This document shows, one piece after another, positions 6,009 to 33,885 of a stretch of DNA of 64,000 bases; within the stretch, counting starts at the first letter, position 1, and every line of letters starts with the position of its first letter. Made by a program: the position numbers and the translations under genes. The DNA lies in the NCBI GenBank assembly GCA_000004985.1, contig GG738885.1; one strand, 5' to 3'. Source of the DNA: Naegleria gruberi. Its lineage: Eukaryota. Below the pieces are notes generated by a model. The model had not been told where the DNA came from. It made no database searches and worked only from the letters and a program-made list of their open reading frames with translations.

Positions 6009-7469
6009 TTATGGTTGTTGAGTAGTTTTCACAGATTGTACATTTGCAAGCATTTCCTTACAGAGCTCAGAGCTTTCGAATTGTAAATAGAGAGGAAACA
6101 CCATTGTACTAATCACATCCTTCTCCAAAGAATCGAACAAATCTTCCACATATCCTTCTTCCTCTATTCTCTTCTTTGCTGCATTAATTAGCTTTTTACT
6201 GGTATTCACCTCAAACACAGCATTATCCTCTAAAAAGGTATCGAAAATATACGAGGCCTTGACATGATGTTCTGGAATGATAATTTCTGAAGGCGGAATG
6301 AAGATGGTAATATCGCACGATTCATCCACAGCAAGATTTGATCCTGATTTCTTAATCAGATCGGAATTGTAGGTGAATTTCTTACAGGCCTTACATAAAA
6401 TCTTGTACTGAGCTATTTCTTCAATAAATATTGCCAATTCCAAACTGAAAATATTAGAGAGATAGGCTTTAAAGTATCTTCTCATTGTAGAATTTTCCAA
6501 AACTTCCTGTACAGTCAACTTATCTGATCCAACAGAGGCAATACTCACTCTTCCCTCCTCCACTTCTTCCTGCTGGAGAGTTTGTTCGATATTGAGAATG
6601 GATCTGGTTTTTCTAGCAGTTTGGAAAATGAAAAACATGTCAGGGAATAATTTCTTCAAATCATTCAAATATTGATCTGGTGATTGTTCTACTTCTGAAA
6701 CCAAATTGCTCGTCTCTGAACTGGCCTTTCCCAAATTGAAAATAAATTTACCATAATCAGGTCTTTCAGATAAATCCTTATAGAAATAACTAGTTTCGAA
6801 TGAACCATGACTAATAATATGCATTGTAAACAATGAAAACATATCCATATGTCTAATATCTTTCAATGAAGGTAATCTCAATTTCTTATCTTCCTTAAAC
6901 ATGAATTTCAGAATGGTTGGAAGTGCCAATGCATGTCTCACTAAACTTGCCTTTGGAACCATTAATAAACCATGTTTGATAGAGTTTGAGATTTTACAAT
7001 GCAAGAGATTGGTTCCTTTCATTGATTTTACGCACTTTTCATTGTTTTCTTGATGGCAAATCACTGGAACAACGTTCATCATTAAGAAACTGCTCAAATA
7101 ATTACTAATTGATGTGATGACATGTTGACACATGGGACAGCCGAACCATTTAATGACAATGAGGAGTACTCTGTGTTTTTCACTCAATCTGAGAACAGAA
7201 TGTCCACTTGGATGGACAATCATCTCTTCCAAAACATTCAAAATGTCAAAAGTTGCTGAGGCGTTTGACATGACCGTGTCAGCACTCTTGGAAATATCGG
7301 ATGAAGCATCTATTGTATTTCTTCTATTACATGTTTGTTCTCCAGCTAAATCTTGAGACAGGGAAACTTCGTCCTTGCTATGTCTTTTTAAATTTGATTG
7401 GGTGCCAACTGTCAAAAATCTAACGCTATTTGTTTTCTTTGAAGATGAAGCGGAGTTGGTATCACTCAT
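6009..7469 (-). CDS. RGS-domain protein with N-terminal thioredoxin-fold (AhpC/TSA_2-like) CxxC region
   Basis: The C-terminal half has RGS hallmarks (MRRYFKAYLSNIFSLELAIFIEEIAQYK ... ASYIFDTFLEDNAVFEVN). The N-terminal half has WFGCPMCQH, a CxxC motif of the AhpC/TSA_2 / PRXL2 type. Single long ORF. ATG at 7467..7469 (MSDTNSASSSKK). Confidence 0.65.
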   Translation of the reverse strand: MSDTNSASSSKKTNSVRFLTVGTQSNLKRHSKDEVSLSQDLAGEQTCNRRNTIDASSDISKSADTVMSNASATFDILNVLEEMIVHPSGHSVLRLSEKHRVLLIVIKWFGCPMCQHVITSISNYLSSFLMMNVVPVICHQENNEKCVKSMKGTNLLHCKISNSIKHGLLMVPKASLVRHALALPTILKFMFKEDKKLRLPSLKDIRHMDMFSLFTMHIISHGSFETSYFYKDLSERPDYGKFIFNLGKASSETSNLVSEVEQSPDQYLNDLKKLFPDMFFIFQTARKTRSILNIEQTLQQEEVEEGRVSIASVGSDKLTVQEVLENSTMRRYFKAYLSNIFSLELAIFIEEIAQYKILCKACKKFTYNSDLIKKSGSNLAVDESCDITIFIPPSEIIIPEHHVKASYIFDTFLEDNAVFEVNTSKKLINAAKKRIEEEGYVEDLFDSLEKDVISTMVFPLYLQFESSELCKEMLANVQSVKTTQQP

Positions 7470-7959
7470 TGTTTTTTTATTGAAGCAAAATGAAAAGTCA
7501 GAAACTATACTTGACAGATGAACTCGAAATATTGACCTTGCGATTGCTGACAGAAGGGGAAAAATGTGGTAAGTAGAATTGAAAGCTGGACAAATTGGAG
7601 CGAAAAAAGAAATATTTGCAGTTTTAAATGAAATGTAGTCAGTGAATATTCCATGAGGTGGTGAAATAGCTGTTATTGACCCTCCTGCCAGGCAATAAGA
7701 GGAAGATTGTGATGTTAGGAATTACATGTCTCTAATAAACATTGGTTCAATGCCAGATCGTGAGATGAAAATTTTAAGGATTTGGCAATTATTGAATAAA
7801 GACTGATGTTATTTGAAAAGTTGTTTTGCCAAATTGCTTAAAATCATGTGCGAAGCCAATCTCCAGACGTGGCATCTTGTTGAATTGTCAAATACCAAGA
7901 CAAGGGAAAAACAAGTACTGATTTTTCAAACGCTATTTATTTTAAAAGTTTATGTGAAA

Positions 7960-8030
7960 TCGGGTGTGGTATAGTGGTAGCATTCCAGACTGTCACTCTG
8001 GCGACCCGGGTTCAATTCCCGGCACTCGAG
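7960..8030 (+). tRNA. tRNA-Asp (anticodon GTC)
   Basis: TCGGGTG acceptor 5' arm pairs with CACTCGA (one G·T wobble), discriminator G. Anticodon stem CCAGA/TCTGG with loop CTGTCAC. T-arm CCCGG-GTTCAATT-CCGGG variant. A T5 run follows immediately (attaattttt). Confidence 0.85.
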
Positions 8031-8231
8031 ATTAATTTTTGATGACATATCCAAATATTTTAATTTTGTTTTTTAAACATATGAGGAATGATACGTAATC
8101 TACCTAACCATCAATTTTTAAAGTTTCATCTCTTAAAACCACCGAGAAAATAATCAAAGATTCCAACTCTCATTTTCCTCTAACACTATTCAACATGTGG
8201 GTTGGTTTTTAAAAATAGGAAATTAAAAAAA

Positions 8232-10104
8232 ATGAAAAGAAGTAATCAAACGATTGACTCAGTTGACAATGCCGATCATCACAAAAAGATTAAATTATCA
8301 ACATCCGATCAAGTAAATACATATTCCTTGTCTGATTTGACTCGGGATGAATGGACTGTGATTATTCAATATTTACCCACCGGAGGAGTGTTAATGTTGG
8401 CCATGACTTGCAAAGATAATTATGAATGGACAATGGAATATATTAAAAACGTTATTTGCAAGTATTATGTGAAAGAACATCCTAAAAAGTATTCCAGAAA
8501 CGTAACAATCAAAGAATGGTCAATAGTGAATGCATTGAGGTTTGTTTTCATTTTGGAAAATTAAATAATTGTTGGAAAGACAAATGGAAAGGCTTTGGGT
8601 GGGAAATTTGAATTTGGATCCAATTACAGAGATTCTAAAAGAAATAGCAAAAAGAAATGGATCAATTAAAGAGTTGTCAAGCTTTCTCAAATTAGATTAT
8701 GATTATGAATCTGTATTTGAATTATTGAATATAAGAAAAGAAAGCCCAACTCCAGTTCAAGTCGAAACTCTTAGTGTCAAACTACCAGATACAAATATAG
8801 GAAGACATATTTATGAGGCATTGGAGAGTCAAAAATTTATCAACACTATTGAATCAGAACTAATTGGTTATGGATTGAAGGCTGCAGAAATTGAAATGAC
8901 ATTAACCAGATCTAAATTTTTCAAAATTCTAACAAAATTGAAAGATATAGAGATTTTGCACCTCAACATTGATCAGGAATACGAATACACAATGGGTGGT
9001 ATGGGTGGAAGGGGAAAAGGAGGAATTCGTAGGCCTATTATTGATAAAATTAATGATGATGGAAAGGAAGCATTTGACGAAACTTTTGCCTACATACCTA
9101 TATTTTACAATCTAAAGACATTAAGAATAGACAAGTACTTTGATGAAAATACTGACTATATTTTTGAGATACTTGGATTGTTTCCTAACCTGGAACATTT
9201 CCATTTGATTACTTCTACAGCTATTGACGATGATCACTTAGAATTAATTTGCAAATTCTGTCCAAAATTGAAAACTCTTGATATTGCTGACGATAATGAG
9301 GCATTAAGCATCACAGATGAAGGTCTGTTAAAATTCTTAGAAAAACAAACAAGCATTGAAATAATAGATTTAGAACCTATGCCATATATTACTGGTGCTG
9401 TATTGAAAAAACTTGGAGACTTCCCAACATTGAAAAAGTTTGCAGTACAACGAACTGTTTGGTGTGAGGGTGGATACGAAGTGCAAGACAACGATGTCTA
9501 TTTTGGAGGAAATCCAAATCCAAAATTGGAATATATAGATATTGGTTCTGGGTATACTTTTAATGAGGAACAATACGAAAAATTATTTACCTCTTTGAAA
9601 ACTGTTGCACCAAATTTAAAAAGCTTTGGACAATTTGGAGAATTAGAATCCAAAAAGATTGTAGAATTATATATCAACACTTTGGAAGAATTGGAAATCA
9701 ATTTAGGCACATTCGATTTAATTCAATCATGTACCAATTTGAAAAAAGTAATATTGGATAGTGTATTGGATAAACAAGACAAGATTGTATGTAACTTGAA
9801 TGTAACTGAACTGGTTGATTATTGTTACAGTCATGAAATGTATCCAATTCTCACAGAATCATTTCCCAACTTGAAAGTTATTGAAGGCGCTCATTTCGGT
9901 CTCTTCAATTTTTTACTAGAAAACATTAATTGCTGGCCACAACTTGAATTTCTAAATGTACAAACTGAGCCTAAATTCGAACTATTAGAAACTCTAATGT
10001 CTCAAAGGCCAAAGCTTGCTATTGTAATAGAGGAAGATATGCCATTGTCACCACAAGCATTCTACTATCAATGGTTGGTCAGGGATTGTCTAAAAAAGAG
10101 ATAG
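8232..10104 (+). CDS. F-box / leucine-rich-repeat (AMN1/FBXL-type) protein; one short intron
   Basis: Exon 1 (ATG 8232) has an F-box-like segment LSDLTRDEWTVIIQYLPTGGVLMLAMTCKDNYEW. A short GT...AG intron lies around 8540..8580. Exon 2 carries Cys-containing LRRs (LGLFPNLEHFHLITSTAIDDDHLELICKFCPKLKTLDIADDNEALSITDEGLLKFLEKQTSIEIIDL). Confidence 0.55.
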
Positions 10105-10406: not shown

Positions 10407-13400
10407 TTATTCTTTCAGTTTCAAAGTAGAGCCAAGATTTTCTTTCAATTCAATTTTTTTGTTCATACTTTCATAACTGTCAGATAGGACAAAACGTGAG
10501 AAGGTATCGTCAATATTCATAATTATGGCACAATACAAATCTGAGAGAACTTCCTTAATTTCCTTATCGTTTTGTTGATTGTTTCTTACAGATTCGAATA
10601 TTTTATGGAAGGATTTCTTGGTATTGTGTGAAATGTTAAGTTCCATTGGAGAATTATTTTCAATAAATGTAGCTTTCCACTCTTCAAAATGTTTACACAA
10701 TTCTGTGGTTGCAGGTGTGTTGCCATTATTGATAGATTCGAATACTGGTGCAAGTTTAGTCCAGAATATTACATTTTCCAACGAATGCTCAGTTTTGGCA
10801 AATTGTTTGAAAATTTCACATAATGTTGGATTTTTAAGAATTTCATTCAGTTGATTATCTTCCTCAAGTATAGACTCCTCTTTCATTTTAGTATGCTTTC
10901 CACTAATTTTAGATTTAACTAATTCATAAATTGAGACTAGAGAAACTAATCCACCAAAACTCATAATTAACATGATATTATACAATAATTCGAAAGCAAT
11001 TTGAGCAGCAGATAAGCCCTGGTTTGAAGCTACAAGAAGTGAAAATCCAAGCCCATAAGTAATAATAAAGAATATAATGCTCGTAAAGAAGAAAATAAAT
11101 TCTTTTCTGAAAGCAAGATTGTCATTCACTATCAAGTAATTTTTGATTGGATTAATCACTAATTTCTTATCTTTTAAGGTCAGTTTGGTACTCAATTGAA
11201 CATATCTTAATTCCATATAAATATCAAAAAAGTGAATTACACAAACTAATAAAGACATGACCAAAACAAATGAAAATAATGAACCAGCCATGATTGATGC
11301 ATATTGACTTGAAGAGATTACTGCTGTTTGTTGTAAGGAAATGAAAATTACATAAAAAGCAATAAAAACACATGCAACAATCAAGTTAGCAATAATGGAG
11401 AAGGTTTTGCTTGAAAATAAAAGCTTAATCCACTTGAATTTCTTCTCATTGAGCACGTCAACTTCCTTCTCATCGAAAATAGCCATAATTTCATATAGAT
11501 ATCTAAATACAATGTATCGTGAGCTTAATATCAAATAGTTTAGAATAGATAAACAATAGAAAGTGGAAGCAATCATTGTAGAAACTTGTCTCACAATCAT
11601 TGAGTTTGGATTTTTTGCTAAACTTAGAGAATTTGCAATAATGTAAGTGAAAACAAGTTCAATTAATAGTGAAATTAACGCAAAGTATGGAATTATTCCT
11701 CTACTCTTGGTTGGTGTTTTCTTACATGTGACAATAACACCCACCAATGCAATTAATGTTAAAAATATTAGGAAACAACCAATAACAATGGATGCAATAA
11801 CACCACCTTCATTAGCTAATGTCACTTTGACGTCAATAAATGATGAAAATGAAGTTGTGTGATTACAATAGCAATTGACAACACTACTATTTTTAGAAAT
11901 TTCAGAAATGCATCCATCGGTAAGCCATTTCTTACTAGTTTCATCAAAAAACTTGCAAGAGACAACAAGTGAGGAATTATTTTGTACGCTTGACAAAATT
12001 TTAGAATCCACATTCAAGGAAAGTATAATAGGATTTGCCAAATTTGAAACTTGTAAGAATTGGCCATTTAAAATATATTTCAATTCAACAACTTTTGCAA
12101 TATTAACTGAAGAACCTTTGGAAACTTTGGAAATAATACTAGCATCAGTCAAATTACTTGTTAGTTCAGTAGCATTCGAATAGAGAGAAGCCAACTTTTC
12201 CATATTGAAATAAGTAATTGAACCAACTGAAACTCCTTCTCTTACCAGATCTGAAGGTGTAGAAATGGTTGTATTTCCGTCATTGAGATATGATGAAGAA
12301 TTGAGGTTTCTAACAACTGAAACAATAAATGAAGGTGTTTCAGTTTTAAAAATACTATCTTTCTCATCACTGGATTTGGAAGAAACGAGAATCAAGGTTT
12401 CAATTACAGAACTTGAAGAGTAATTTGAAGATACAATGACATTGGAATAGGCATTCAAAACTTGACTAATGGTTGTGTCTATAGCATTAGATGATTTCAA
12501 AGTAGATACTTCTAACTGGTTCAATTCAGATGAAATTGTCGAAATCAAATTCGAAACAGTGGAAACAATAGAAGTTGTAACTGATGATTGAGATGAAATG
12601 ACATTCAAAGCAGTAGAAACCTTCAATGTCTGATCAAGATCAGAGGTATTTCTCTGAACTGTTGACAATGCTTGTGTAACCATAGTCAAAACTGAAACAG
12701 CACTAGATGCTTTCGAATAAGTATCAGAATTTGAAGCAATACTAGCAATATCCTTTGTAGAAATCGAACCTAAGAATGACTCTGTCACTACATTTTCGTA
12801 TTTCATCACTTGAATTGTTTCAGCAGTTTTAAATGAATAAGAAATTCCTCCAAATGAAATTCTTAGTACTGCAGTAAAGTTTCCTTCAGAATTCAATGAA
12901 TATGAAACAATCATTGGATTGGCAGTCGATACAATAGTAGGGTTACCAATATTGGTATAAACACCATTGTTCGAAAACAGAACAGTATAAGTTGCACTTG
13001 TCAAATATGATTTGAGATTTGAATGATACTTGACTGCAATTAGCACAGTGGAATCAACAAAAGTGATAGTATTATCAAATTTGATTGAAATATCTGGTGA
13101 GCAATCAGTAGAATTACCAGAAAGTATCCATCCATCATCACAATAAGGAGTTAGTTTTCGAATAGCTAAATTGCCGTTGTCTGAAATATATATTGAGTTA
13201 TCATTTCTATCAACTGCTAGTGAATTAAGTCGGAACGAAAACAATGATGTCTTTCCATCTTTGTATCCTGATACACCAAACGTTCCTGCAATATTTGTTA
13301 TGAAACCAGATGATTTCTTTAACATTCGAATAGAACTTCTTGAATGTGATAAAATCAAATCACCATTTGATAAATAGAAAAAATCAGCAAGAGAAGTCAA

Positions 13401-15125
13401 TGGAGACTGAATAGCAATAACACTATTAGAAGAAGTATCCCAAATAGCACATGTTCCATTACCAACCAAAGTTATCAAGGTTCCATCATTTAAAATCTTA
13501 TTAATGGTACAATTAGAAGGAAAGTAAAATACAATACATCCATCGGTAGGATCAACTGCCAATCTTTCTGCCTTAAATGTTGTAGAATTGAAATACATGG
13601 AAATTGTTTGTGAACTAAGGTCAACCAATCTAATAGTTCCCAAATCAGCAACGTAAATCTTATTTTCATAAATGGCAATATCAGCAATGCTTCCAAATCC
13701 AGCATTGGAAAGAGGACCACCATCTCCATACCCTGAAGCACTGGTTGAGGTTGTTCCTACAACCACCACATAATTTCCAGTTATTTTGTCAATTTTCATA
13801 ATTAAACTTGGAACTGCATAATAAACTTCTCCATTCCATTCATCTATTGCACCAAATAGAACACCCAATGAAGAATTAGCAGCTGGTAAACCAATTGACA
13901 AGGCTGCAAAATCATCACTTCTTCCATCTCCTCCAATAATTGAAGAGTAACCACTTTCAAATTTGTGTAGGAAATATCTCTCAAAATCCAATCCATATAA
14001 TACTCCTGGTTTGGTTCTACTAGCAGCTATCAATGAAGTACCAACATACATAGTTGTAGATTTGACACTTGTTTGATTGTCACTTGAATATCCAATAAAT
14101 ATTTTGGATTTGCAATTACCTGCGATAGTTGTTTTGGTACCGTTAGTCAAATCAAACTTGTATATGTACTTTTGTTCTTCAGCAACTATTAATTTTCCAT
14201 TCAAATCAAAAAATGCAGAACTAGCTTTGATGACTGGAAGTAGAGTTTGGCTTGTGGAACCACCAGATAAATCATATTTGAAGATACTAGTCAATGCATT
14301 CACATATAGATTATTGTCTTGTTTGAACATTTTGTCAAAGAAAAATGGTGATGAGATGATTGGAGATAGAATAGTTCTGTTTCTCCAATTCATTAAACTG
14401 ACCTTTCCATTTTGTCCTTCAGAAATATAGAGTAAATCACCATTAACAAGCACATCTTGAGCTTGATATCCACTTCCTCCGTAAATAGTTTCAATGAATC
14501 CACTTGATATGTTAAATTGTCTTACACGGTTATTACCATAATCAGCAATGAATAGAATAGTTTCGTCTGGAGAAAGTTCCACTCCTAAAGGATTGTTTAA
14601 TCTAATGCTGTTCAAATCAGATGTACCATCACCAGAAAAATTTGCTGTTCCACATACTCCCACAAGTGTTGAAATGTTTCCATTCTTGATATCCAACTTT
14701 CGAATACATCCATTACCTTGTGCTATATACATGATTGTTTCGTCTTGTGTGAGCACCATCGAGAATGGAGATATTACACTGACAGAAAGTGCAGAACCGT
14801 CCCCAGGGATAGTTTTTCTATAATTACCAGCTACAAGACTAATAATTCCGTTGTTATCTATCTTTCTAATAGCAGCCATGGATGCATCAGCAATATACAT
14901 GGATCCATCTTTTGTTGGTATGATATCCTTGATGTAACTTAGGCATGACATGCTACTCTCGAATCCATCTCCAAATCTCTGTTGAAAAAGTTGTGAGTTT
15001 CCTCCTGCGAAAGTCGAAACTGAATACTTGACGTTCGGTGGTGTTTGTGTGTGAACGGTGGTCACCAACATACAAAGACATGCCAATAATAGAAGGATAT
15101 GACACGCCACTTGAAACACTTTCAT
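10407..15125 (-). CDS. Adhesion-GPCR-like receptor: signal peptide – NHL-repeat beta-propeller – Ser/Thr-rich stalk – GAIN/GPS motif – 7TM – C-terminal RGS domain
   Basis: ATG at 15123..15125 with a signal peptide MKVFQVACHILLLLACLCMLVTTVHTQ. NHL-type repeats (FSGDGTSDLNSIRLNNPLGVELSPDETILFIADYGNNRVRQF). GPS motif CKFFDETSKKWLTDGC-x12-CYCNHTTSFSSF (C..W..GC..CxCxH-T-T-F). Seven hydrophobic segments follow. C-terminal RGS signatures (FKQFAKTEHSLENVIFWTKLAPVFES...IIMNIDDTFSRFVLSDSYE). One uninterrupted 1572-codon ORF. Confidence 0.75.
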   Translation of the reverse strand: MKVFQVACHILLLLACLCMLVTTVHTQTPPNVKYSVSTFAGGNSQLFQQRFGDGFESSMSCLSYIKDIIPTKDGSMYIADASMAAIRKIDNNGIISLVAGNYRKTIPGDGSALSVSVISPFSMVLTQDETIMYIAQGNGCIRKLDIKNGNISTLVGVCGTANFSGDGTSDLNSIRLNNPLGVELSPDETILFIADYGNNRVRQFNISSGFIETIYGGSGYQAQDVLVNGDLLYISEGQNGKVSLMNWRNRTILSPIISSPFFFDKMFKQDNNLYVNALTSIFKYDLSGGSTSQTLLPVIKASSAFFDLNGKLIVAEEQKYIYKFDLTNGTKTTIAGNCKSKIFIGYSSDNQTSVKSTTMYVGTSLIAASRTKPGVLYGLDFERYFLHKFESGYSSIIGGDGRSDDFAALSIGLPAANSSLGVLFGAIDEWNGEVYYAVPSLIMKIDKITGNYVVVVGTTSTSASGYGDGGPLSNAGFGSIADIAIYENKIYVADLGTIRLVDLSSQTISMYFNSTTFKAERLAVDPTDGCIVFYFPSNCTINKILNDGTLITLVGNGTCAIWDTSSNSVIAIQSPLTSLADFFYLSNGDLILSHSRSSIRMLKKSSGFITNIAGTFGVSGYKDGKTSLFSFRLNSLAVDRNDNSIYISDNGNLAIRKLTPYCDDGWILSGNSTDCSPDISIKFDNTITFVDSTVLIAVKYHSNLKSYLTSATYTVLFSNNGVYTNIGNPTIVSTANPMIVSYSLNSEGNFTAVLRISFGGISYSFKTAETIQVMKYENVVTESFLGSISTKDIASIASNSDTYSKASSAVSVLTMVTQALSTVQRNTSDLDQTLKVSTALNVISSQSSVTTSIVSTVSNLISTISSELNQLEVSTLKSSNAIDTTISQVLNAYSNVIVSSNYSSSSVIETLILVSSKSSDEKDSIFKTETPSFIVSVVRNLNSSSYLNDGNTTISTPSDLVREGVSVGSITYFNMEKLASLYSNATELTSNLTDASIISKVSKGSSVNIAKVVELKYILNGQFLQVSNLANPIILSLNVDSKILSSVQNNSSLVVSCKFFDETSKKWLTDGCISEISKNSSVVNCYCNHTTSFSSFIDVKVTLANEGGVIASIVIGCFLIFLTLIALVGVIVTCKKTPTKSRGIIPYFALISLLIELVFTYIIANSLSLAKNPNSMIVRQVSTMIASTFYCLSILNYLILSSRYIVFRYLYEIMAIFDEKEVDVLNEKKFKWIKLLFSSKTFSIIANLIVACVFIAFYVIFISLQQTAVISSSQYASIMAGSLFSFVLVMSLLVCVIHFFDIYMELRYVQLSTKLTLKDKKLVINPIKNYLIVNDNLAFRKEFIFFFTSIIFFIITYGLGFSLLVASNQGLSAAQIAFELLYNIMLIMSFGGLVSLVSIYELVKSKISGKHTKMKEESILEEDNQLNEILKNPTLCEIFKQFAKTEHSLENVIFWTKLAPVFESINNGNTPATTELCKHFEEWKATFIENNSPMELNISHNTKKSFHKIFESVRNNQQNDKEIKEVLSDLYCAIIMNIDDTFSRFVLSDSYESMNKKIELKENLGSTLKLKE

Positions 15126-22110: not shown

Positions 22111-22183
22111 GCCCGTCTAGCTCAGTCGGTAGAGCGCAAGGCTCTTAACCTTGTGGTCGTGGGTTCGACCCCCACGGTGGGCG
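22111..22183 (+). tRNA. tRNA-Lys (anticodon CTT)
   Basis: GCCCGTCTAGCTCAGTCGGTAGAGCGCAAGGCTCTTAACCTTGTGGTCGTGGGTTCGACCCCCACGGTGGGCG is near-identical in architecture to canonical eukaryotic tRNA-Lys-CUU. Anticodon loop CTCTTAA. Acceptor arms pair 7/7 with two wobbles. A T-rich terminator follows. Confidence 0.9.
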
Positions 22184-25834: not shown

Positions 25835-27487
25835 TTAGGCAGATAGTGAACATTGAAGTAAATTATGTAATCTTGCATAACTAGCTTCATAATCATCGGT
25901 CATGATTGCAATTTTCGAATTGTCAAATGAGAATGTTAATTGCATTACAAATTGGAGAGAAATCAAATTGTTGGACGAAAGGGCAAACGAGAATGGGATG
26001 CCTACCGATTGCATCCAGTGAGCATTCTTTGAAATTAGTCCAAGATAATGATCTCTGTTTTTGAATTCGATTTCATCAAAGTAGTAAATTACATGATCAT
26101 AGGATTTGAGTTGATTTGATAAAATTCTCTTTGAATCTTTTGAGCGAATGAGCCTTCTTGGTATTTTCATCAGTTCTATATCAATACTTGGATATTTGGA
26201 AGTAAAATCTATCATATAATCTCTAGAATAAAGTTCTGAATATGAATTGTGGAATAGTATGAGGAATTTACGACCATAAAATTCATTCTCCATTTCTTTA
26301 CATCTAATGTCAAAGGGACAAATAATATCTGGAAATGAAATCTTAAACTCGTCAATTTTTTCAAAATAAGGCTCTCCTGTTTCTGTATTCAAAACAAAAA
26401 AGAGATACTTGTTGGAAATGAGCCCTCTCTCAATTAGAAACATTAGAATTTCCCATCCTGATCTGATTAATTTCCTTAAATTCCTTTCAATTAATGGTTT
26501 ATACTCCAATCCAAATCGTTCAGAATATTCCAGTAAAAACTCCAAATGACCCTTCTTCAGAAATGTAGGCACAACAATACAGCACTCTTCCAATTCCTCA
26601 ATACTCTTCAATGTATAGCCCATATCCAATAACTTGTACGATAGAGAACTATTATTTGATTTCACTGCCTTCACCAAGAGAATATTCCTTTCAGCAACAG
26701 ATTGAATGGCTCTATCAACTTTCTGAATAAATGGATCAAAGAATGCAGTTCCAAAAAACGAAGCAAATGCCTTTGATTTCAATCTCAAATCTCTCTTATT
26801 ACATGGTACATTGAGAATGGCTCTTGTAAATCCCTCAAACATATTCAACATCACCCTCTCAGAGAACACTTGCACATAATTCCTCAATGATTTTCCAAAC
26901 CAAGGTACGTTTAACATTAATTTTCCATCAAGATACTTCTCATCAACTCTACACATATCATGAACAAGATGATCTGCCATAATTTCATTCTTTTCTTCAT
27001 TCAAACAAACTCTCATTCTAATATACGAAGAATAATCATCCAGCAGTTCACTAATAAACAATGAAACTCGATCTCCCTTATAATCAATCAATGAAAATCT
27101 AATATCACTCATCAAAGAGGATGGAAATTTAAATTCCTTCAATCTGTTTGTCTGTTTGTTTATTTCCTCCTCTTCCTCTTCCTCTTCGGCTTCATCTTTC
27201 CCATCATTAAATTCATATATCAAACTCCTCTTCAATAACATTCCCATCTCATATTCAGCAGGATGAGAGTGAGAAATAAATTCCAACCAACACGAAAACA
27301 TCCGATCTTCAATCTGTTTCGGATTCAATAATTCATTAATTCCCTTGCTTACTTGTTGATGATAATTTTGGAGGAATTTCTTGTGCTTGATGAGAAAATT
27401 CCATTCCTTGCAAACGAGGGAATAAACTAGAAAGACAGCGTTTGGCATTCCGAAAGTAAAGATTTCAAAGAGTGCATCTTGATACAT
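25835..27487 (-). CDS. F-box-like domain protein, function unknown
   Basis: ATG at 27485..27487 gives MYQDALFEIFTFGMPNAVFLVYSLVCKEWNFLIKHKKF, which is F-box-like. The remainder has no recognised domain. There is an acidic EEEEEEE stretch. Confidence 0.45.
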   Translation of the reverse strand: MYQDALFEIFTFGMPNAVFLVYSLVCKEWNFLIKHKKFLQNYHQQVSKGINELLNPKQIEDRMFSCWLEFISHSHPAEYEMGMLLKRSLIYEFNDGKDEAEEEEEEEEINKQTNRLKEFKFPSSLMSDIRFSLIDYKGDRVSLFISELLDDYSSYIRMRVCLNEEKNEIMADHLVHDMCRVDEKYLDGKLMLNVPWFGKSLRNYVQVFSERVMLNMFEGFTRAILNVPCNKRDLRLKSKAFASFFGTAFFDPFIQKVDRAIQSVAERNILLVKAVKSNNSSLSYKLLDMGYTLKSIEELEECCIVVPTFLKKGHLEFLLEYSERFGLEYKPLIERNLRKLIRSGWEILMFLIERGLISNKYLFFVLNTETGEPYFEKIDEFKISFPDIICPFDIRCKEMENEFYGRKFLILFHNSYSELYSRDYMIDFTSKYPSIDIELMKIPRRLIRSKDSKRILSNQLKSYDHVIYYFDEIEFKNRDHYLGLISKNAHWMQSVGIPFSFALSSNNLISLQFVMQLTFSFDNSKIAIMTDDYEASYARLHNLLQCSLSA

Positions 27488-27603
27488 TTTTTTCAATTTT
27501 GAAAAGTAAATATTCTAAAAATAATAAATAATATTTTTAAATACTGATTACAAAAAATTATTATTTTACATTTTTCCTAATATATTAATTACACTTAGTT
27601 ATT

Positions 27604-30469
27604 TTACAATTGATAAGGTAACCAAATTCTGTCTGGAATTGGTGGTTCATGATCTGCCAAGAAGGCAGTTGAGGAAGTTGGATTTAACATCATGAGTTGC
27701 ATGTCAAATTCATTAATTCCAACACCACTCATATTGAATGGACAAAGACAAGGTCCAAATGATCCAGTATTCGAAATATTCATGCTACTTTCAGGTAAAT
27801 TAGAAAGTGGAGCATCTTTAGAGCTGAGAATTCTCTTTCCATCTTTTAGAATTCCCAATCGAATCCAGAAACATCTGTCATATAATTTCAAAAGCCACAA
27901 GTCCCATTTTCCATCATTAGTTGTTTTGAAATAGTCCTTTCCTTCACTTGCTGATCCAATTTTAGAATCCAAATCAAAGTAGACCTTATCGAGCTCTGCA
28001 TGACTCGAAAAGACAATGAAATTCTTATCTTCAGGTACTTCATCCGAATTGGATGTCTTTTGTTGTAAATTCTTGTAAGTGTACTTGTTTCTGATACTTT
28101 CTGGAGCATATTCAATGTTACCAACGAGAGTTTTCTCATCTTCACCCAATCTGGAGTAGGCCTCTCCTGAAACAATATTTTCGACACCTTGTTGTTGAAG
28201 CTCCATGGCCATCTTCTTTCCAAATAGAGCTTCCTTAACAGGTTGATTCAAATAAAAGGCCATATCTGAAAAACCATACTTTTCAATTCTGTCCAACAAT
28301 TTCTGAACTCCCATGCCAAATGGATATTGTAAAACGTGATGAGCTGGAATGCCCTTCTTCTTGTCCTCAACTTTCGTCAATGGAACAAGTTCGAGTGCCT
28401 TGATAACATCCTGAACAAAGTGTTGATGATTGCAAGTTTTCAAATTGTACACATTGGTACCATTCCACAAACTACAAACTTCTGAGAGTTTGGATAAGAG
28501 TGCAGTAATATTCTTCTCTCCTTCCACTTTCTTAAGTGTAATGTAGTGGAAATGAGGATTGAAACGAAGCAGACCTTGAGGAGGTTTTCTAGATGGAATA
28601 ACGAGTGAATTCTCCTTCCATTCTAAAAACCAATTTCCAATCATGATACCAGTTCTCAATAATTTGTACCTATTCGTGTCTTTCATTTCAATCATGAATG
28701 ATTCGCTAAATTCAAAAACTACCAATTGACATTGTAAATAAGCTTCTTCCTTCTTTGAAGATCTACCAAACAATTTTGCCAAATTTGATTTCTTCTCTGG
28801 TTCGCACTCTTCACCATCATTGAGAGCAATGGTTCCAGACTTCTCACCAGTTGGATTATCAAAGAAGAGATAATTGTAACAATCAGGAAGTGCCAAATTC
28901 TCTGACATGAAAATCTTTTCCCTGTGTGAAAAAATTCTTCTATCAATCGGAGCAAGTTTCTTGAAAACATTCGAAACCAAAACTCTTTCCAACTCGCTCA
29001 GCTGCTTAAAATCAATCAAGAGAGGTAAACGTTCTGACAATTGAACACTCACAAAATCAATAGTAATATTTGATGTAGTGGCATGTGTCTGCTCAGAATC
29101 TGGAAACATCTTTTCAATATTATTTGTTTGTTGTGAAGCTGCCTCTGAACTAGAAGTTGCATCAAATTTCACATCAAATAATTTCTTCTTCTTTCCACTA
29201 CTATTCATCTTCTTTTGAATAATTGTATCAAAAGATGAAGGATCTGTCAATAACAAGTAAATATTCTTATATCTTGACTTGTACTTTCCCAATTGTTCAA
29301 TTAATATCAAATCATTATTCAAAATTTGTGGGAAAACTGTTTGTCTAAGTGATTTCTCATCAATTGGTCGAACACAATTATCAAGATCACTATTAACCAG
29401 ACAGGAAACTAGACGATCACGACTCTTCTTTTTTTCTTTACCATTTGATGAAGAGGAGGTGGAAGAGGATGAATTATTCATCATTATATTTTCCATCATG
29501 CTATTACTTCCAATGGAATCGAGTGATGGACGAATCATACTATTCGAATCTGATGATGAAGATGAATTAAGATCTGCTTCCTCTGTTGAATTATTGATCA
29601 TGGGAATGATGCTTCCATTTAGTGCCATTGATTTTCTTGTTGTATATCCAACAGGTTTTGGTGGTCGATAATTGACAGGTGAAACATCACTTGGTGTTGT
29701 GGGCGTAGTTGAATTTGAAGAGAATGGGGATTGATTTCCAAAGGATGTTTGTGGACTGTTGGGTGAATGTCCTTCACTAGCAGAATTTGAATGTTCAACT
29801 GCACTAATAGGATTATTCGAATTTGGACGAATCATTGATGAATCTCTTCTAGTGACTACAATACCAGTTCGATTACCGAATCTACTTGTTTTTTCCAAAT
29901 TTTCTGATGAAGCAGATTTCCTTGTTATTGCTACTGAATCCTTTCTTTGATTACTTGGAGAAATACTTGGAGAAGAAACATTATTCGAAACTGTTGTTCT
30001 CGTTGTTAAAACTCCTCCCATTTCTACATTTTCCAACTTGTCTTGAATTTCCATTAGATTCTTCTGATGAGAAATATGTTTTTGAATTGATGAATAGATT
30101 AGTTCGGCTTCGTCTTGGGAAATAATATTCTCCAAATCTGAAACTTCGAATTGGACAAGAGCAGAGCCATCCCACGATTCTTGTTTTAGAGTTGTTAATG
30201 TTGATTGTGAAAATCTGTAATTTAAAGTTCTTTCCAAGTGTCGAAGAAAGGAAAGAAAATCACCAGTTGACCAACGAGAAATTGGTTTAGATTCATCAAA
30301 TGGAAGATCTTCCGATAATGTATCTTTTGTAAATAATAAGTGTTTGTGCAATGGGTGAAGTGAGGATGACAAATTTTAATGTATAACACACAATTAGTTT
30401 CGAATAGAGATCAATATAAAGTTATTCGAAACTAGAATACAAACCTTCTGAAGAAGCAGAAATAAACAT
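27604..30469 (-). CDS. SAM-domain-containing protein (about 930 aa), function unknown; 5' exon + intron
   Basis: Putative first exon ATG at 30467..30469 (MFISASSE). A GTTTGT...AAAAG intron (about 30335..30444) joins in frame to DTLSEDLPFDESKPISRWSTGDFLSFLRHLERTLNYRF...ALVQFEVSDLENI (SAM-like). There is a long Ser-rich linker. The C-terminal roughly 400 aa is globular with no assignment. Confidence 0.45.
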
Positions 30470-30788
30470 TTTGCAAATTGATTACCTCTGAGTTACACAC
30501 AAAACACAAAAACCTCGATTTTTTTTTAATTCTTCTTCTGTGATGCAACTACATACTCGATTGACACCTGACAGTGAAATTTGAAAATAGGAATCATTTG
30601 CTCAGTCTATCTGACACGCTACAATTAAAAATCCTCTACGCAAAACTCTTCTCCTTCCTTATCAAAGCACCGAAGATGAAATTGGTAGCAAACGAAAGAG
30701 CATTTCTTCTTGACTTGGTTGACTCGACAATTCAGTACAATGTTCGATATTTTCAAATGAAAATGATAACGAACTGGAAAGAATAATT

Positions 30789-31279
30789 GATTAGAATCAG
30801 GGTTCTGCACATGAATATTGAATTTGGAAATAAACCAATATATTATTTGTTTTTGTTTTCAGTCATATACATATCAATTTTCAACTATTAATATAGAACC
30901 CATACTTTTATTTTTGAAAAGTTTTACTTTGCACGCCTCAGCACATTGTGCTAAGGTGATTAGAACCAAGCTAGAACCTGAGGCATTCTATTCAACCAGT
31001 GGTCAGTGTTCTTTTTGTTTAATTAATATTCAATAATCAATATTATTGCTATTACTCTTGTTTGTAGAACGGTATGTTTTTGATTTACATCATAACTTGC
31101 AATTAAACATCCCGGCACGATTCATTCACAAAACATCATCAGGATGTTTTTTTTTCATCAAATTTTTTAAATTTTATTAGTAACGGTAGTTTTGTGTGAT
31201 TCATGGCTCATCAAGTGTCTTTTTCTTATTTCATCGTAACCTCACAATGTGAGGTTTTGTGCAGAACCCTGATTAGAAT
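30789..31279. mobile_element. hAT-like MITE: 475-bp non-autonomous element with 14-bp terminal inverted repeats and 8-bp target-site duplication
   Basis: TSD ATTAGAAT at 30789..30796 and 31272..31279. TIRs cagggttctgcaca (30797..30810) and tgtgcagaaccctg (31258..31271) are perfect reverse complements. The TIRs begin CAGGG, matching the hAT YARNG rule. An 8-bp TSD is typical of hAT. The interior is AT-rich and non-coding, with a subterminal hairpin aacctcacaatgtgaggtt. Confidence 0.65.
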
Positions 31280-31673
31280 GGATCTCGCTTTGGTGTTTGA
31301 TTGGATATTATGATAATCATCACTATTGATTACAAAGAATAGTATAGTTTAGGATAAATATTGTTGAGCGAAAAGAATGAGAAAGATCTCTCTTGGACGT
31401 TTCGTGTAAAATGACTTCGACTAGTATTTATGCATGTTGTGTTGACTATTGTTGAAAGGTTGTATCGCTGGTACAGAGTTTCGAATAAGTGTTTGGAGAA
31501 ATAGGCTAAAATACCGACCCTTCAACTCGTGTCGACACATCTCAAAAAGAATCACTACCATTTACATTATTTAATATCCAATTTGTCAGACCTACAATTT
31601 TGTAAATTATAAAAATGCAGTGTAAAAAAATATTTAAAAATTATTACAAATTTCAATAAAAATTATTTATAAA

Positions 31674-32181
31674 TTAAACAAATGAATTTCGATGATCTTG
31701 ATTCACTTGTTTGTAAGGTTGTTCAGCATCTCTTTTCGGTTCATCCCACATAAATACTAATTTGGAACATTCATTACTTCCAAATTTGGCACCATCTCTA
31801 ATTGCTGCTTCGAATGGATGACTCGTTTGCACCCCAACTTGTTCATTCTTTTCCTGTTCTCTTCGAACTGAGAATTCGAGTGAGTTTTTTTCAGCAAGTT
31901 CGAGGATTCGTTTACATTCGCCTGAACCTTTCTCACCTCCTTCTTGAATTGCTTTGAAATCTTTATAAAATCAAAGATTGGAAAGTGAGAATAATATTTC
32001 AAAAGGAGGAGAACTTACAAGGATGTGAAAAGAAGGCTGAGGAATCGTTTACTTTCGGATTGGTGGGAATGTCATGACGAGGATCGTAATTGGAGCTTGA
32101 TTTGACTGCATAACATCTTCTACTGCTGTAGAGGAAACTATCTTTGAATAATCTACTCAAAAAATTAGAGTTTTTAAGCAT
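31674..32181 (-). CDS. Small two-exon gene encoding a basic N-terminal (presequence-like) protein of about 150 aa, function unknown
   Basis: Exon 1 (ATG at 32179..32181) MLKNSNFLSRLFKDSFLYSSRRCYAVKSSS...FFSHP. A GTAAGT donor and AAAG acceptor (intron about 31943..32015) join in frame to YFKAIQEGGEKGSGECKRILELAEKNSLEFSVRREQEKNEQ...NSFV, ending at 31674. The second exon is absent from the ORF track because it lacks a start codon. Confidence 0.35.
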
Positions 32182-32349
32182 TTCTTTTTTGAATATTTTA
32201 CAAAATAATTTCGTCCAGTTTCTTTTAAAGAAATTTTACAAATTAGGATTGTACATCATCATTTGGGCAATCCATTTATACTATTACATTGAGGTCAATT
32301 GAGATATCTCTTAAGGATTGATCCCATTAATTTTACAGAGATAACAAAA

Positions 32350-33885
32350 ATGATTCAAAAAAAAATGTCACTTCTCAACACATCTCAGTTGAACATTACT
32401 TCACCATGTCATCCTCTATTATTTCAATTAGGAGCCCTTAATTACGAGCCAACCATCACCCCAAACACAACCATCTGTCCCGATTCAATATTTACTCCAA
32501 TCATTTCATCAATTTCGACATTTCTCTGTCTTGTCATGATTTTTTTTAGTATTCCAATGATAATTATCAAAAGAAAGAGTGGACATATTGTGAACCGAAA
32601 TATAATATTAATAGTAGTTGATTTGATATTTAATTCGTATTTTGTTTTGAATACTGGAGTGAGGTATATTGTGGGAAGGAGGAATTTTGGTTGTTTGATT
32701 TATTCGATAACGTTTTTTGTGATTCCTCCTTCGATATTTATGCCAAATATATTGAAATGTTGGAGATTGTTTTGTTTGGATAAGATTAATTCGATGATTT
32801 CGAATACTTTAAACGAAAGTTTGGATCATCAGCTCAATAATAATCAATTGACCAATTCTATAACAAGACAACACACAACAGATCAAATAGCAATCGAAAA
32901 GGCATCCATTCCAACCGAAAGTACAAAACAATTATCACCCAAACAGAAACGATTCATTTCCCTTCTCAGATTTACAACCAGTAATTCCTTCTCAACTGTT
33001 TTTTACATTATCATTATACTATTCCACTTGGTGTTGTGGCTTATTTGTGGAGGAATTGATTTGGCAACACCAGGAAGGAAACTCTTCCTCGCCGATGGAA
33101 AATTATTGGATCCTCAATTTGGTTGCATTTTAGGATTGGGATCAATTGTTGTGGTTGCTGGTCAGTGTGTGGTTTACTTGGTTATTGAGCTGATTGTGTT
33201 GGGGTTGTGCTTTTATTCTGATAGAGATACTTGGAAAATTAAGAAGGAAACTATTATATGTGCTATATTTCAATTGATTAGTTGTGTATTGTTTGCTGTT
33301 TTAGGTAATATTGATATTGTAAAGTATTTAGTGGATAATTTGGTGCCGTATGGAAATGTTTTGGTGGCATATTCATTATTTGCAATATTTGTGTCGGTGG
33401 TTCTTCCAATTTTCTATTCCATTCGAGAAGATCGAAAGAAAATACTCGATTTGGAAAGTAATGTTGCTGGAGATGTTGAACAATTTTTGAAAAATAAGGA
33501 AAATTATGAGAAAATTTTGGATTTTGCAAGGAGAAGTTACTGTCCAGAGAATTTATTATGTTGGAGGGATATTCAGAGGTTTAAGAATTCGTTTCATATG
33601 AATGGGAAAGTGGAAGAAAGTGCAAGAATGGGAATTAACATTGTGGAGAGTTATTTGAAATCATGCTCATTGGCTCAGATTAATTTACCCTCCGATCTGG
33701 CCTTGAAAGTTGGAGAAATTGAAACATTGCTATCGAATTCACCTAATTTAATTAATCAAAATCTGTTCGATTCAATTCAAAGCCATTGCTTGGTAGATAT
33801 TCAATGTGATGTCTATATTCGATTCACAGTTCAATCAAAAGGAACCAAAAAAAATCAAAAAGAAGAAACATCAACCCAAATTTAG
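32350..33885 (+). CDS. 7TM receptor with C-terminal RGS domain (GprK/AtRGS1-type architecture)
   Basis: ATG at 32350 (the track start is TTG). Several hydrophobic helices run through about residue 380. RGS signatures are EKILDFARRSYCPENLLCWRDIQRFK, NIVESYLKSCSLAQINL and DIQCDVYIRFTVQS. Confidence 0.7.
   Translation: MIQKKMSLLNTSQLNITSPCHPLLFQLGALNYEPTITPNTTICPDSIFTPIISSISTFLCLVMIFFSIPMIIIKRKSGHIVNRNIILIVVDLIFNSYFVLNTGVRYIVGRRNFGCLIYSITFFVIPPSIFMPNILKCWRLFCLDKINSMISNTLNESLDHQLNNNQLTNSITRQHTTDQIAIEKASIPTESTKQLSPKQKRFISLLRFTTSNSFSTVFYIIIILFHLVLWLICGGIDLATPGRKLFLADGKLLDPQFGCILGLGSIVVVAGQCVVYLVIELIVLGLCFYSDRDTWKIKKETIICAIFQLISCVLFAVLGNIDIVKYLVDNLVPYGNVLVAYSLFAIFVSVVLPIFYSIREDRKKILDLESNVAGDVEQFLKNKENYEKILDFARRSYCPENLLCWRDIQRFKNSFHMNGKVEESARMGINIVESYLKSCSLAQINLPSDLALKVGEIETLLSNSPNLINQNLFDSIQSHCLVDIQCDVYIRFTVQSKGTKKNQKEETSTQI

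What the first reader, a model, noticed from the sequence alone, without database searches (positions are those of the whole stretch)
6009..33885. Three RGS-domain genes within 28 kb, two of them 7TM–RGS fusions
RGS signatures occur in three genes: 6009..7469 (thioredoxin-fold CxxC + RGS), 10407..15125 (aGPCR-like + RGS) and 32350..33885 (7TM + RGS). This local density of G-protein-deactivating modules, each fused to a different sensor-like N-terminal module (redox fold, adhesion ectodomain, plain 7TM), suggests lineage-specific expansion of receptor-GAP chimeras. The WFGCPMC + RGS combination is itself unusual. It is a candidate redox-regulated GAP.
Basis: partly seen in the sequence, partly recalled or inferred. 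Interest (0 to 1): 0.55.

Follow-up and report, generated by a model that had tools for sequence, protein, structure and literature searches.

The report
Three unrelated RGS genes in Naegleria
Three real but only distantly related G-protein "off-switch" (RGS) genes lie within 28 kb of the Naegleria gruberi genome; two belong to receptor-like types already described in Naegleria, and the third joins a peroxiredoxin-like CxxC redox domain to RGS, a combination conserved across heterolobosean amoebae that I found no paper describing.

Summary
The window is Naegleria gruberi DNA. All three ORFs pass Pfam's RGS threshold, and no other RGS domain is in the 64 kb. Gene 2 is signal peptide, NHL ectodomain, GPS, 7TM and RGS. 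Gene 3 is 7TM plus RGS.

The local-expansion reading does not hold. The three RGS domains share only 12-20% identity, and each is closest to paralogs on other contigs. With about 108 RGS genes per Naegleria genome (count published for N. fowleri), one such triplet somewhere in the genome is near chance expectation. 7TM-RGS and GPS-7TM-RGS proteins with proven GAP activity are already published for N. fowleri (Bosch et al. 2022).

The new part is gene 1:
- Its N-terminal domain is a PRXL2/AhpC-TSA_2-type thioredoxin fold (AF2 pLDDT 92.9).
- The best PDB match by both profile and fold is human prostamide/PGF synthase.
- The CxxC is invariant in a 38-sequence alignment.
- The domain-plus-RGS architecture occurs in 67 of 133 clusters checked. 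Every named member is heterolobosean (Naegleria, Willaertia, Acrasis).

A redox-coupled GAP is plausible but untested. Gene 1's RGS has lost three of five Gα-contact residues.

The parts
6009..7469 (-). Gene 1: soluble PRXL2-like(CxxC)-RGS protein, 486 aa, no TM segments
   Evidence: 100% identical to an NCBI N. gruberi predicted protein. No hydrophobic TM segment. Family alignment.
6723..7250 (-). Gene 1 N-terminal thioredoxin-fold domain of the PRXL2 / AhpC-TSA_2 / SelL-like type (aa 74-249)
   Evidence: AF2 with a 38-sequence alignment: pLDDT 92.9, pTM 0.88. Foldseek top hit is human prostamide/PGF synthase 9usa, E 1.5e-7, followed by PrxQ/Prx6. Profile against PDB: 9us9_A, E 4.4e-6, full length. 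Among profile homologs, 30/57 match AhpC-TSA and 11/57 match AhpC-TSA_2.
7128..7139 (-). CxxC motif (C111-P-M-C114) at the beta1/alpha1 junction
   Evidence: Both Cys are invariant in 38 aligned domains, including standalone bacterial-type relatives; H139 is conserved in at least 90%. In the model the strand is 27-32 and the helix starts at 39, with the Cys at domain positions 38 and 41.
6060..6512 (-). Gene 1 RGS domain (aa 320-470), with an insert and divergent G-alpha contact residues
   Evidence: Pfam 30.1 bits. Equivalents of RGS4 E87 and N128 are kept; N88 is L, D163 is P and R167 is Q.
10407..15125 (-). Gene 2: signal peptide - NHL ectodomain - Ser/Thr-rich stalk - GPS - 7TM - RGS, 1572 aa
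   Evidence: 100% identical to an N. gruberi predicted protein (P0025).
13146..15038 (-). Gene 2 extracellular NHL / Teneurin-NHL beta-propeller region (aa ~30-660)
   Evidence: TEN_NHL PF25021 at 50 bits and NHL at 30.6 bits. Hundreds of bacterial NHL-repeat homologs.
11844..11960 (-). Gene 2 GPS motif (aa 1056-1094), ...CYCNHTTSFSSF...
   Evidence: PF01825 at 29.5/32.7 bits. NHTTSF is conserved in P0026.
10914..11822 (-). Gene 2 seven hydrophobic segments (aa 1102-1404)
   Evidence: Hydropathy of g2 alone and averaged with P0026. No Pfam GPCR family is matched.
10467..10850 (-). Gene 2 RGS domain (aa 1426-1553)
   Evidence: Pfam 39.5 bits. Aligns to RGS5/RGS1 structures. Equivalents of S85, E87, N88, N128, D163 and R167 are all kept.
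32350..33885 (+). Gene 3: 7TM-RGS protein, 511 aa; the public gene model (363 aa) lacks TM1-3
   Evidence: Paralog P0010 aligns over 98% of the 511-aa ORF, whereas the annotated P0007 covers 71%.
32470..33435 (+). Gene 3 seven hydrophobic segments (aa 41-362) with a long loop between TM3 and TM4
   Evidence: Family-averaged hydropathy and single-sequence scan.
33478..33828 (+). Gene 3 RGS domain (aa 377-493)
   Evidence: Pfam 32.5 bits. Aligns to RGS10 structures. Equivalents of E87, N88, N128, D163 and R167 are kept.

Best explanation
The region holds three independent members of Naegleria's very large RGS repertoire. They sit near each other without being local duplicates. Genes 2 and 3 are receptor-like GAPs: a 7TM core with a cytoplasmic C-terminal RGS domain. 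By analogy with Arabidopsis AtRGS1 and the tested N. fowleri 7TM-RGS proteins, they would keep self-activating G-alpha subunits off until the 7TM or ectodomain is engaged (inferred). In gene 2 the ectodomain is NHL propellers plus a GPS-containing stalk. Gene 1 is a soluble two-domain protein: a PRXL2/AhpC-TSA_2-type thioredoxin fold with an invariant CxxC, followed by an RGS domain. It belongs to a family whose named members are all Heterolobosea. The most likely working model (inferred) is that the dithiol/disulfide state of the CxxC domain, or a thiol-dependent reductase activity of that domain, is coupled to binding or GTPase acceleration of a G-alpha subunit by the RGS domain. That would link oxidant or thiol status to heterotrimeric G-protein signalling.
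For: Organism and gene identity: (100% matches to N. gruberi proteins on a 362,555-bp contig). RGS domains; only three in the window. Not local duplicates: pairwise RGS identity is 12.5-20%, the domains form three separate clades, and the nearest relatives (34-47%) are on other contigs; the 7TM cores are unrelated. No conserved synteny seen: the N. fowleri locus L001 has two PRXL2-RGS paralogs head to head but no annotated 7TM-RGS within 10 kb. Chance level. Published background: N. fowleri has 28 7TM-RGS (some with GPS, EGF or lectin ectodomains) plus 79 other RGS proteins, and GAP activity of 7TM-RGS domains on Nf G-alpha was shown in vitro (PMC9283941). G-alpha contact residues are intact in genes 2 and 3. 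Gene 1 N-domain: a profile search over 1.84e9 representatives gave 134 hits. Of 57 scanned, 37 have RGS, 30 AhpC-TSA, 11 AhpC-TSA_2 and 10 Redoxin. 67 of 133 clusters checked carry both domains. The CxxC is invariant. The best PDB profile hit is PRXL2B, E 4.4e-6. AF2 pLDDT is 92.9, and the Foldseek top hit is PRXL2B, E 1.5e-7. The CxxC of PRXL2B is redox-active and catalytic (PMC12938796). Named taxa are Naegleria x3, Willaertia magna and Acrasis kona.
Against: No function was tested here. Gene 1's own N-domain does not reach any Pfam threshold, so its assignment rests on profile, transitive and structural evidence. Gene 1's RGS domain has lost three of five canonical G-alpha contact residues (N88L, D163P, R167Q), so it may be a weak GAP, a GAP with unusual specificity, or only a G-alpha-binding or scaffold module. 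The 7TM cores match no known GPCR family, and TM number rests on hydropathy alone. The number of RGS genes in N. gruberi itself was not obtained, so the chance estimate uses the N. fowleri count. The synteny check covered a single locus within +-10 kb and relied on Pfam labels of the called genes.
Confidence: 0.72

Rival explanations
1. The three genes form a functional signalling island: co-regulated or co-inherited RGS genes that act on the same G-alpha pathway and are kept together by selection.
For: Three RGS genes in 28 kb is rare for one random 64-kb window (P about 3e-4 to 1.5e-3). A large RhoGEF gene lies 3.7 kb downstream of gene 3, and RhoGEFs are G-alpha effectors in N. fowleri when fused to RGS.
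Against: Genome-wide, 0.27-1.7 such triplets are expected by chance. The genes lie on both strands and are separated by unrelated genes: tRNAs, DUF4116 proteins, an AP endonuclease-type TIM barrel and a GNAT. The N. fowleri locus around a gene-1 homolog has no annotated 7TM-RGS within 10 kb. The RhoGEF has no RGS domain.
Confidence: 0.1
2. This is a recent local duplication followed by domain shuffling, which is the first reader's 'lineage-specific expansion of receptor-GAP chimeras' at this locus.
For: 7TM-RGS paralogs do occur next to or near each other elsewhere. N. lovaniensis C9374_011232 and 011233 have consecutive locus tags, and pairs of N. gruberi paralogs are reported with the same longest-contig length. 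Two PRXL2-RGS genes are adjacent in N. fowleri.
Against: In this window the RGS domains are 12.5-20% identical and sit in three separate clades, each with closer relatives elsewhere. No similarity is detectable outside the RGS domain.
Confidence: 0.03
3. Gene 1 is primarily an enzyme: a thiol-dependent reductase of peroxides or endoperoxides, like PRXL2B/PGF synthase or a PrxQ-like peroxidase. Its divergent RGS domain would only dock it to a G-alpha subunit or to membranes, or would have lost G-protein function altogether.
For: The closest solved structure is the enzyme PRXL2B. The CxxC is invariant across fused and standalone relatives. Gene 1's subfamily lacks the N88, D163 and R167 equivalents.
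Against: Across the 67 fused proteins, E87 (66/67), N128 (61/67) and R167 (49/67) are conserved, which indicates selection on the G-alpha-binding face. The PGFS residue Arg41, proposed to guide the PGH2 peroxide, is W in gene 1 and H in most relatives. The canonical peroxiredoxin PxxxTxxC motif is absent, as read directly from the sequence.
Confidence: 0.2

Closest known systems
Naegleria fowleri 7TM-RGS family (Bosch, Jeck & Siderovski 2022, PMC9283941) and Arabidopsis AtRGS1
   Same: They share the 7TM core followed by a C-terminal RGS domain. Gene 3 is homologous over its length to N. lovaniensis, N. fowleri and N. gruberi family members. Some N. fowleri members also carry GPS motifs and complex ectodomains, like gene 2. 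The RGS contact residues are intact.
   Different: Gene 2's ectodomain is NHL/Teneurin-NHL propellers rather than the EGF or lectin modules mentioned for N. fowleri. Only one other protein with the same architecture was found (P0026). No sequence similarity to the AtRGS1 7TM region was tested or seen, and GAP activity of these two proteins is untested.
Metazoan adhesion GPCRs (GAIN/GPS + 7tm_2)
   Same: Gene 2 has a large adhesion-type ectodomain and a GPS motif immediately before TM1. The His(-2) and Thr(+1) of the cleavage site are present (CNH-T|T-SF).
   Different: There is no match to 7tm_2 or to a GAIN domain model. Position -1 is Thr rather than Leu. The C-terminus carries an RGS (a GAP) instead of coupling as a GEF.
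PRXL2 family / AhpC-TSA_2 (human PRXL2B prostamide/PGF synthase, PDB 9us9/9usa) and bacterial SelL-related redox proteins
   Same: The gene 1 N-domain has the same fold and the same CxxC position. It aligns over the full length of PRXL2B. Standalone relatives are annotated as SelL-related redox protein or redoxin.
   Different: The domain is fused to an RGS domain. PGFS Arg41 is not conserved (W108). The gene-1 sequence itself is below Pfam thresholds. Additional conserved motifs are present (CHQE, RPDY).
Multidomain RGS proteins (RGS-RhoGEF, GRKs, RGS12/14, sorting nexins with RGS)
   Same: They follow the same design principle: an RGS box combined with an accessory domain that supplies regulation or an effector function.
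   Different: No thioredoxin-fold or peroxiredoxin-like partner domain is mentioned in any paper of the searchable library. Anantharaman et al. 2011, the most complete survey of RGS architectures, could not be read.

Membership tests
RGS domain (Pfam PF00615) | Sequence matches the RGS HMM above the curated gathering score (23.9 bits) | tested here: met
   30.1, 39.5 and 32.5 bits for genes 1, 2 and 3.
RGS domain (GAP-competent R4-like) | G-alpha switch-contact residues equivalent to RGS4 E87, N88, N128, D163 and R167 | tested here: inconclusive
   Genes 2 and 3 keep all five.
RGS domain | Acceleration of G-alpha GTP hydrolysis | not testable with these tools
   Shown only for other N. fowleri 7TM-RGS proteins (PMC9283941).
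7TM-RGS receptor-GAPs (AtRGS1 / Nf 7TM-RGS type) | Seven transmembrane helices N-terminal to a cytoplasmic C-terminal RGS domain | tested here: met
   Seven hydrophobic segments in gene 3 (aa 41-362) and gene 2 (aa 1102-1404), each directly followed by RGS. This rests on hydropathy only; no dedicated topology predictor was used.
Naegleria 7TM-RGS family | Full-length homology to annotated Naegleria 7TM-RGS proteins | tested here: met
   Gene 3: 18 homologs, E 1e-39 to 1e-86, with coverage up to 98%. Gene 2: only the RGS domain is weakly similar to gene 3, so gene 2 is not a member of this particular family.
Adhesion GPCR | GPS motif immediately N-terminal to TM1 | tested here: met
   PF01825 at 29.5/32.7 bits, aa 1056-1094; TM1 starts at about 1102.
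Adhesion GPCR | Secretin/adhesion-type 7TM core (7tm_2) and GAIN domain | tested here: not met
   No 7tm_2 or GAIN hit even at E <= 1 on isolated segments.
Thioredoxin-fold, PRXL2 / AhpC-TSA_2 type | Thioredoxin fold with CxxC at the N-terminus of helix alpha1 | tested here: met
   AF2 pLDDT 92.9. Foldseek top hit is PRXL2B, E 1.5e-7, TM 0.63/0.69, followed by peroxiredoxins. Both Cys are invariant.
Thioredoxin-fold, PRXL2 / AhpC-TSA_2 type | Sequence-profile match to the family | tested here: met
   The family profile hits PRXL2B (9us9_A) at E 4.4e-6 over the full length. Homologs hit AhpC-TSA (best 7.6e-10) and AhpC-TSA_2 (4.5e-9). Gene 1 alone is sub-threshold.
Canonical peroxiredoxin | PxxxTxxC peroxidatic-cysteine motif | tested here: not met
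   The sequence reads LIVIKWFGCPMC: no Pro or Thr at the motif positions (read directly).
Prostamide/PGF synthase (PRXL2B) | Arg40-Arg41 preceding the CxxC (RRFGCxxC) | tested here: not met
   Gene 1 has K107-W108, and most relatives have R-H. The roles of these residues are taken from PMC12938796.

The most novel reading that the evidence does not exclude
The PRXL2-like(CxxC)-RGS proteins are redox-gated regulators of heterotrimeric G proteins. Oxidation or reduction of the invariant CxxC, or its use as a peroxide or endoperoxide reductase, would switch RGS engagement of a G-alpha subunit. That would give heterolobosean amoebae a direct, receptor-independent route from oxidant or thiol status to G-protein signalling. 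I found no description of this architecture and mechanism in the searchable literature.
Probability: 0.3. Interest if true: 0.65.

Novelty: new variant of a known kind. Interest (0 to 1): 0.38.

Why it matters
The clustering and the two 7TM-RGS genes add little. Naegleria's large RGS and 7TM-RGS repertoire, including GPS-bearing members with proven GAP activity, is already published. What is worth keeping is the recognition that some of the roughly 80 'other RGS proteins' of Naegleria carry a previously unrecognised PRXL2-type CxxC domain. This architecture is conserved in Naegleria, Willaertia and Acrasis and is represented by dozens of sequence clusters. If the CxxC controls the RGS domain, it would be a compact example of redox input into G-protein signalling. 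It would also be testable, because recombinant Naegleria G-alpha and RGS assays already exist, in a group that includes the brain-eating pathogen N. fowleri.

Tried and rejected
1. AF2 of full-length gene 1 with only six Naegleria sequences gave pLDDT 41.6 and was not used for fold search. It was replaced by the domain model built on a 38-sequence alignment.
2. A PDB profile search with the shallow 5-sequence N-domain alignment found nothing meaningful. Pfam on those five sequences gave only sub-threshold thioredoxin-clan hints.
3. The homolog search with full-length gene 2 was swamped by bacterial NHL-repeat proteins. It revealed only one protein with the same architecture, P0026.
4. A single-sequence PDB search with gene 1's RGS domain gave spurious LIMP-2 hits and only a weak EhRGS-RhoGEF hit.
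5. The afdb50 fold library was unavailable, so the taxonomic spread of structural neighbours could not be read from AFDB.
6. Anantharaman et al. 2011 (PMC3396428) is not held, and the de Mendoza 2014 supplements are not held. An RGS count for N. gruberi itself and any earlier mention of this architecture could therefore not be checked.
7. I considered that the RhoGEF at 37613-42277 might be the Naegleria RGS-RhoGEF. This was rejected because it has no RGS signal.
8. I considered gene 1 as a canonical peroxiredoxin or a PGF synthase. Both were rejected on motif grounds (no PxxxTxxC; Arg41 not conserved).

Full report
**Origin and gene content**

The window is Naegleria gruberi nuclear DNA. The product of 6009..7469(-) is 100% identical to an NCBI 'predicted protein [Naegleria gruberi]' on a 362,555-bp contig. 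The products of 10407..15125(-) and of part of 32350..33885(+) are identical to N. gruberi proteins with the same longest-contig length. GC is about 33% and long intron-poor ORFs fill the window.

**Check of the observation**

- Pfam RGS (PF00615, gathering score 23.9 bits) is exceeded by all three ORFs: 30.1 bits (gene 1, aa 320-470), 39.5 bits (gene 2, aa 1426-1553) and 32.5 bits (gene 3, aa 377-493).
- An HMM built from 24 RGS domains collected here, run with all filters off on the six-frame translation of the window, hits only these three ORFs (E 1e-30 to 1e-38). The next best hit has E = 0.4.
- Pfam scans of the other 29 ORFs of at least 150 aa show no further RGS domain. They show P450s, DUF4116 proteins, a RhoGEF, kelch proteins, a thioredoxin-TPR protein, ornithine decarboxylase and others.

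**Anatomy of genes 2 and 3**

Gene 2 (1572 aa) has the following parts:
- a signal peptide;
- an ectodomain with a Teneurin-type NHL domain (50 bits) and NHL repeats;
- a Ser/Thr-rich region;
- a GPS motif (29.5-32.7 bits, aa 1056-1094, ...CYCNHTTSFSSF...);
- seven hydrophobic segments (aa 1102-1404);
- the RGS domain.

Gene 3 (511 aa) has seven family-conserved hydrophobic segments (aa 41-362) with a long TM3-TM4 loop, followed by RGS. The public model for gene 3 (P0007, 363 aa) starts inside the ORF and lacks TM1-3.

Neither 7TM core matches any Pfam GPCR family, and no GAIN model is matched. Gene 2 is therefore 'adhesion-GPCR-like' only in its ectodomain plus GPS plus 7TM layout. Both RGS domains align to mammalian R4/RZ/R12 RGS structures and keep the equivalents of RGS4 E87, N88, N128, D163 and R167.

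**Are the three RGS domains a local expansion?**

No.
- Pairwise identity of the RGS domains is 20% (g1-g2), 12.5% (g1-g3) and 15.7% (g2-g3).
- Each is much closer to proteins encoded elsewhere. Gene 1 is 44-47% identical to P0002 and P0005. Gene 3 is 34-38% identical to members of the Naegleria 7TM-RGS family on other contigs. Gene 2 is 29% identical to P0026.
- A neighbour-joining tree puts them in three separate clades.
- Outside the RGS domain, genes 2 and 3 show no similarity.
- In N. fowleri, the locus of a gene-1 homolog holds a second PRXL2-RGS paralog head to head about 1.3 kb away. No annotated 7TM-RGS gene lies within 10 kb; three neighbouring genes there carry no Pfam annotation, and this was the only locus checked.

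**Is the density beyond chance?**

Bosch, Jeck and Siderovski (2022, PMC9283941) report for N. fowleri 28 7TM-RGS proteins, 79 further RGS-domain proteins and one RGS-RhoGEF. I placed 108-200 genes at random on 29.6-41 Mb. The simulation gives 0.27-1.7 triplets within 27.9 kb per genome, with P(at least one) = 0.23-0.79. For one random 64-kb window, P is 3e-4 to 1.5e-3. For a scan that reads the whole genome, the triplet is about what chance provides. I could not obtain the RGS count for N. gruberi itself.

**What is already known**

The same paper describes the large Naegleria 7TM-RGS family. It states that several members have GPS motifs and complex ectodomains (EGF, lectin). It shows in vitro that isolated RGS domains of Nf 7TM-RGS2-4 accelerate GTP hydrolysis on particular, partly self-activating, Nf G-alpha subunits through a canonical RGS/switch-I interface. 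7TM-RGS proteins are also known from plants and many protists (PMC3971589). Genes 2 and 3 are therefore new members of a known kind. Their most likely mechanism is inferred by homology and not tested here: receptor-controlled GAP activity that holds G-alpha in the GDP state until the receptor part is engaged.

**Gene 1, the part that is new**

The six close homologs are all from Naegleria. They conserve WFGCP[MLI]CQ and VPV.CHQE; one N. fowleri model is merely truncated, and its WYGCPLCQ exon lies just upstream. On its own, the N-terminal region reaches no Pfam threshold.

A profile of the domain searched against 1.84 billion representative proteins found 134 proteins with E <= 1e-3.
- Of 57 scanned with Pfam, 37 contain RGS, 30 match AhpC-TSA (best 7.6e-10), 11 match AhpC-TSA_2 (4.5e-9) and 10 match Redoxin.
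- Of the 133 clusters checked with local HMMs, 67 have both the N-domain and an RGS domain, with a [WHFY][FL]GCxxC[QKR] motif.
- In a 38-sequence alignment that includes standalone proteins of about 175 aa, both cysteines are invariant and one His is at least 90% conserved.

That alignment's profile hits human prostamide/prostaglandin F synthase (PRXL2B, 9us9_A) at E 4.4e-6 over the full length, with the CxxC aligned. With the same alignment, AlphaFold2 gives pLDDT 92.9 and pTM 0.88. Foldseek against the PDB returns PRXL2B first (E 1.5e-7, TM 0.63/0.69), followed by PrxQ/BCP, Prx6 and SCO1. Standalone relatives are annotated 'SelL-related redox protein' or 'redoxin' in Bacteroidota.

More precisely, it is a PRXL2/AhpC-TSA_2-type domain. 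It is not a canonical peroxiredoxin, because it has no PxxxTxxC motif. It is not obviously a PGF synthase either, because PGFS Arg41 is W108 here (for the PGFS residues).

**Distribution**

Every named carrier of the fused architecture is a heterolobosean: N. gruberi, N. fowleri, N. lovaniensis, Willaertia magna and Acrasis kona. Some members add ankyrin repeats or long N-terminal extensions. The remaining members come from metagenomes, Logan assemblies or EukProt and carry no organism names.

**Mechanism for gene 1 (inferred)**

In PRXL2B the CxxC cycles between dithiol and disulfide and is the catalytic centre (PMC12938796). An invariant CxxC joined to an RGS domain suggests one of two things. 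Either redox state gates G-alpha engagement, or a thiol-dependent reductase is delivered to G-alpha.

Across the fused family, the RGS face is under constraint: E87 in 66/67, N128 in 61/67 and R167 in 49/67. The Naegleria gene-1 subfamily, however, has lost the N88, D163 and R167 equivalents. Gene 1 itself may therefore be a weak or atypical GAP. I give about 0.3 to a true redox-gated GAP.

**Literature**

No paper in the searchable library combines 'RGS domain' with thioredoxin and Naegleria, or with 'peroxiredoxin-like'. The two papers that hold both 'RGS domain' and 'AhpC' are on unrelated subjects. The main survey of RGS architectures (Anantharaman et al. 2011) could not be read, so prior mention cannot be excluded.

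**Verdict**

- The local-expansion interpretation is not supported, and the clustering is near chance for a genome-wide scan.
- Two of the three genes are new members of a published family.
- The third reveals a conserved PRXL2-like(CxxC)-RGS architecture, apparently specific to Heterolobosea. It is a modestly novel and experimentally tractable lead.

Noticed in passing
window 32350-33885 (+) versus public model P0007: The public N. gruberi gene model for gene 3 is 363 aa and starts at MISNTLNESL. It omits an in-frame upstream part that encodes TM1-3 and is homologous to the N-termini of paralogs. The annotated protein therefore does not look like a 7TM protein.
   Followed up: yes
L001 7124-8647 (-) and 9904-11308 (+) (N. 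fowleri VFQX01000066.1): Two PRXL2-RGS paralogs (P0004 and P0005) lie head to head about 1.3 kb apart. The P0005 model is N-terminally truncated: its WYGCPLCQ segment is encoded at 9904-10068 in another frame, which suggests a short intron or a frameshift.
   Followed up: yes
window 42716-45994 (+): A single 1092-aa ORF fuses cytochrome P450, flavodoxin, FAD-binding and NAD-binding domains. This is a self-sufficient P450-reductase fusion of the CYP102/BM3 or CYP505 type. A P450 fragment also runs off the window at 53-625 (-).
   Followed up: no
window 37613-42277 (+): A 1554-aa RhoGEF (DH domain at aa 571-768) lies 3.7 kb downstream of the 7TM-RGS gene. It has no RGS domain, so it is not the RGS-RhoGEF effector described in N. 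fowleri.
   Followed up: partly
window 36399-37217 (+): This ORF has a thioredoxin domain followed by TPR repeats. It is a second thioredoxin-fold gene in the window and is unrelated in sequence to the gene 1 domain.
   Followed up: no
window 17035-18156 (-) and 18176-18847 (-): Two adjacent same-strand ORFs are full of DUF4116 repeats (231.9 and 91.6 bits). They are probably one gene split by a short intron or a frameshift.
   Followed up: no
window 7960-8030 (+) and 22111-22183 (+): tRNA-Asp(GTC) and tRNA-Lys(CTT) genes lie between the RGS genes. tRNA-Asp sits in the 3-kb gap between genes 1 and 2.
   Followed up: no
window 1591-2247 (-) and 2263-3684 (-): A PAS-domain ORF lies directly downstream of a 473-aa ORF with no Pfam match on the same strand. 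They may be one signalling gene split by an intron.
   Followed up: no
window 8569-10104, 15367-16866, 20488-21990, 25835-27496, 27604-30372, 56884-59829: Six long ORFs (499-981 aa) have no Pfam match at E <= 0.01. Four of them lie between the RGS genes.
   Followed up: no
proteins P0164 (1007 aa) and P0159 (1205 aa), metagenomic: Some members of the PRXL2-RGS family carry long N-terminal extensions; Pfam found ankyrin repeats in two of the 57 scanned proteins, and a source names P0164 'ankyrin repeat protein'. The two-domain unit is therefore reused as a cassette.
   Followed up: partly
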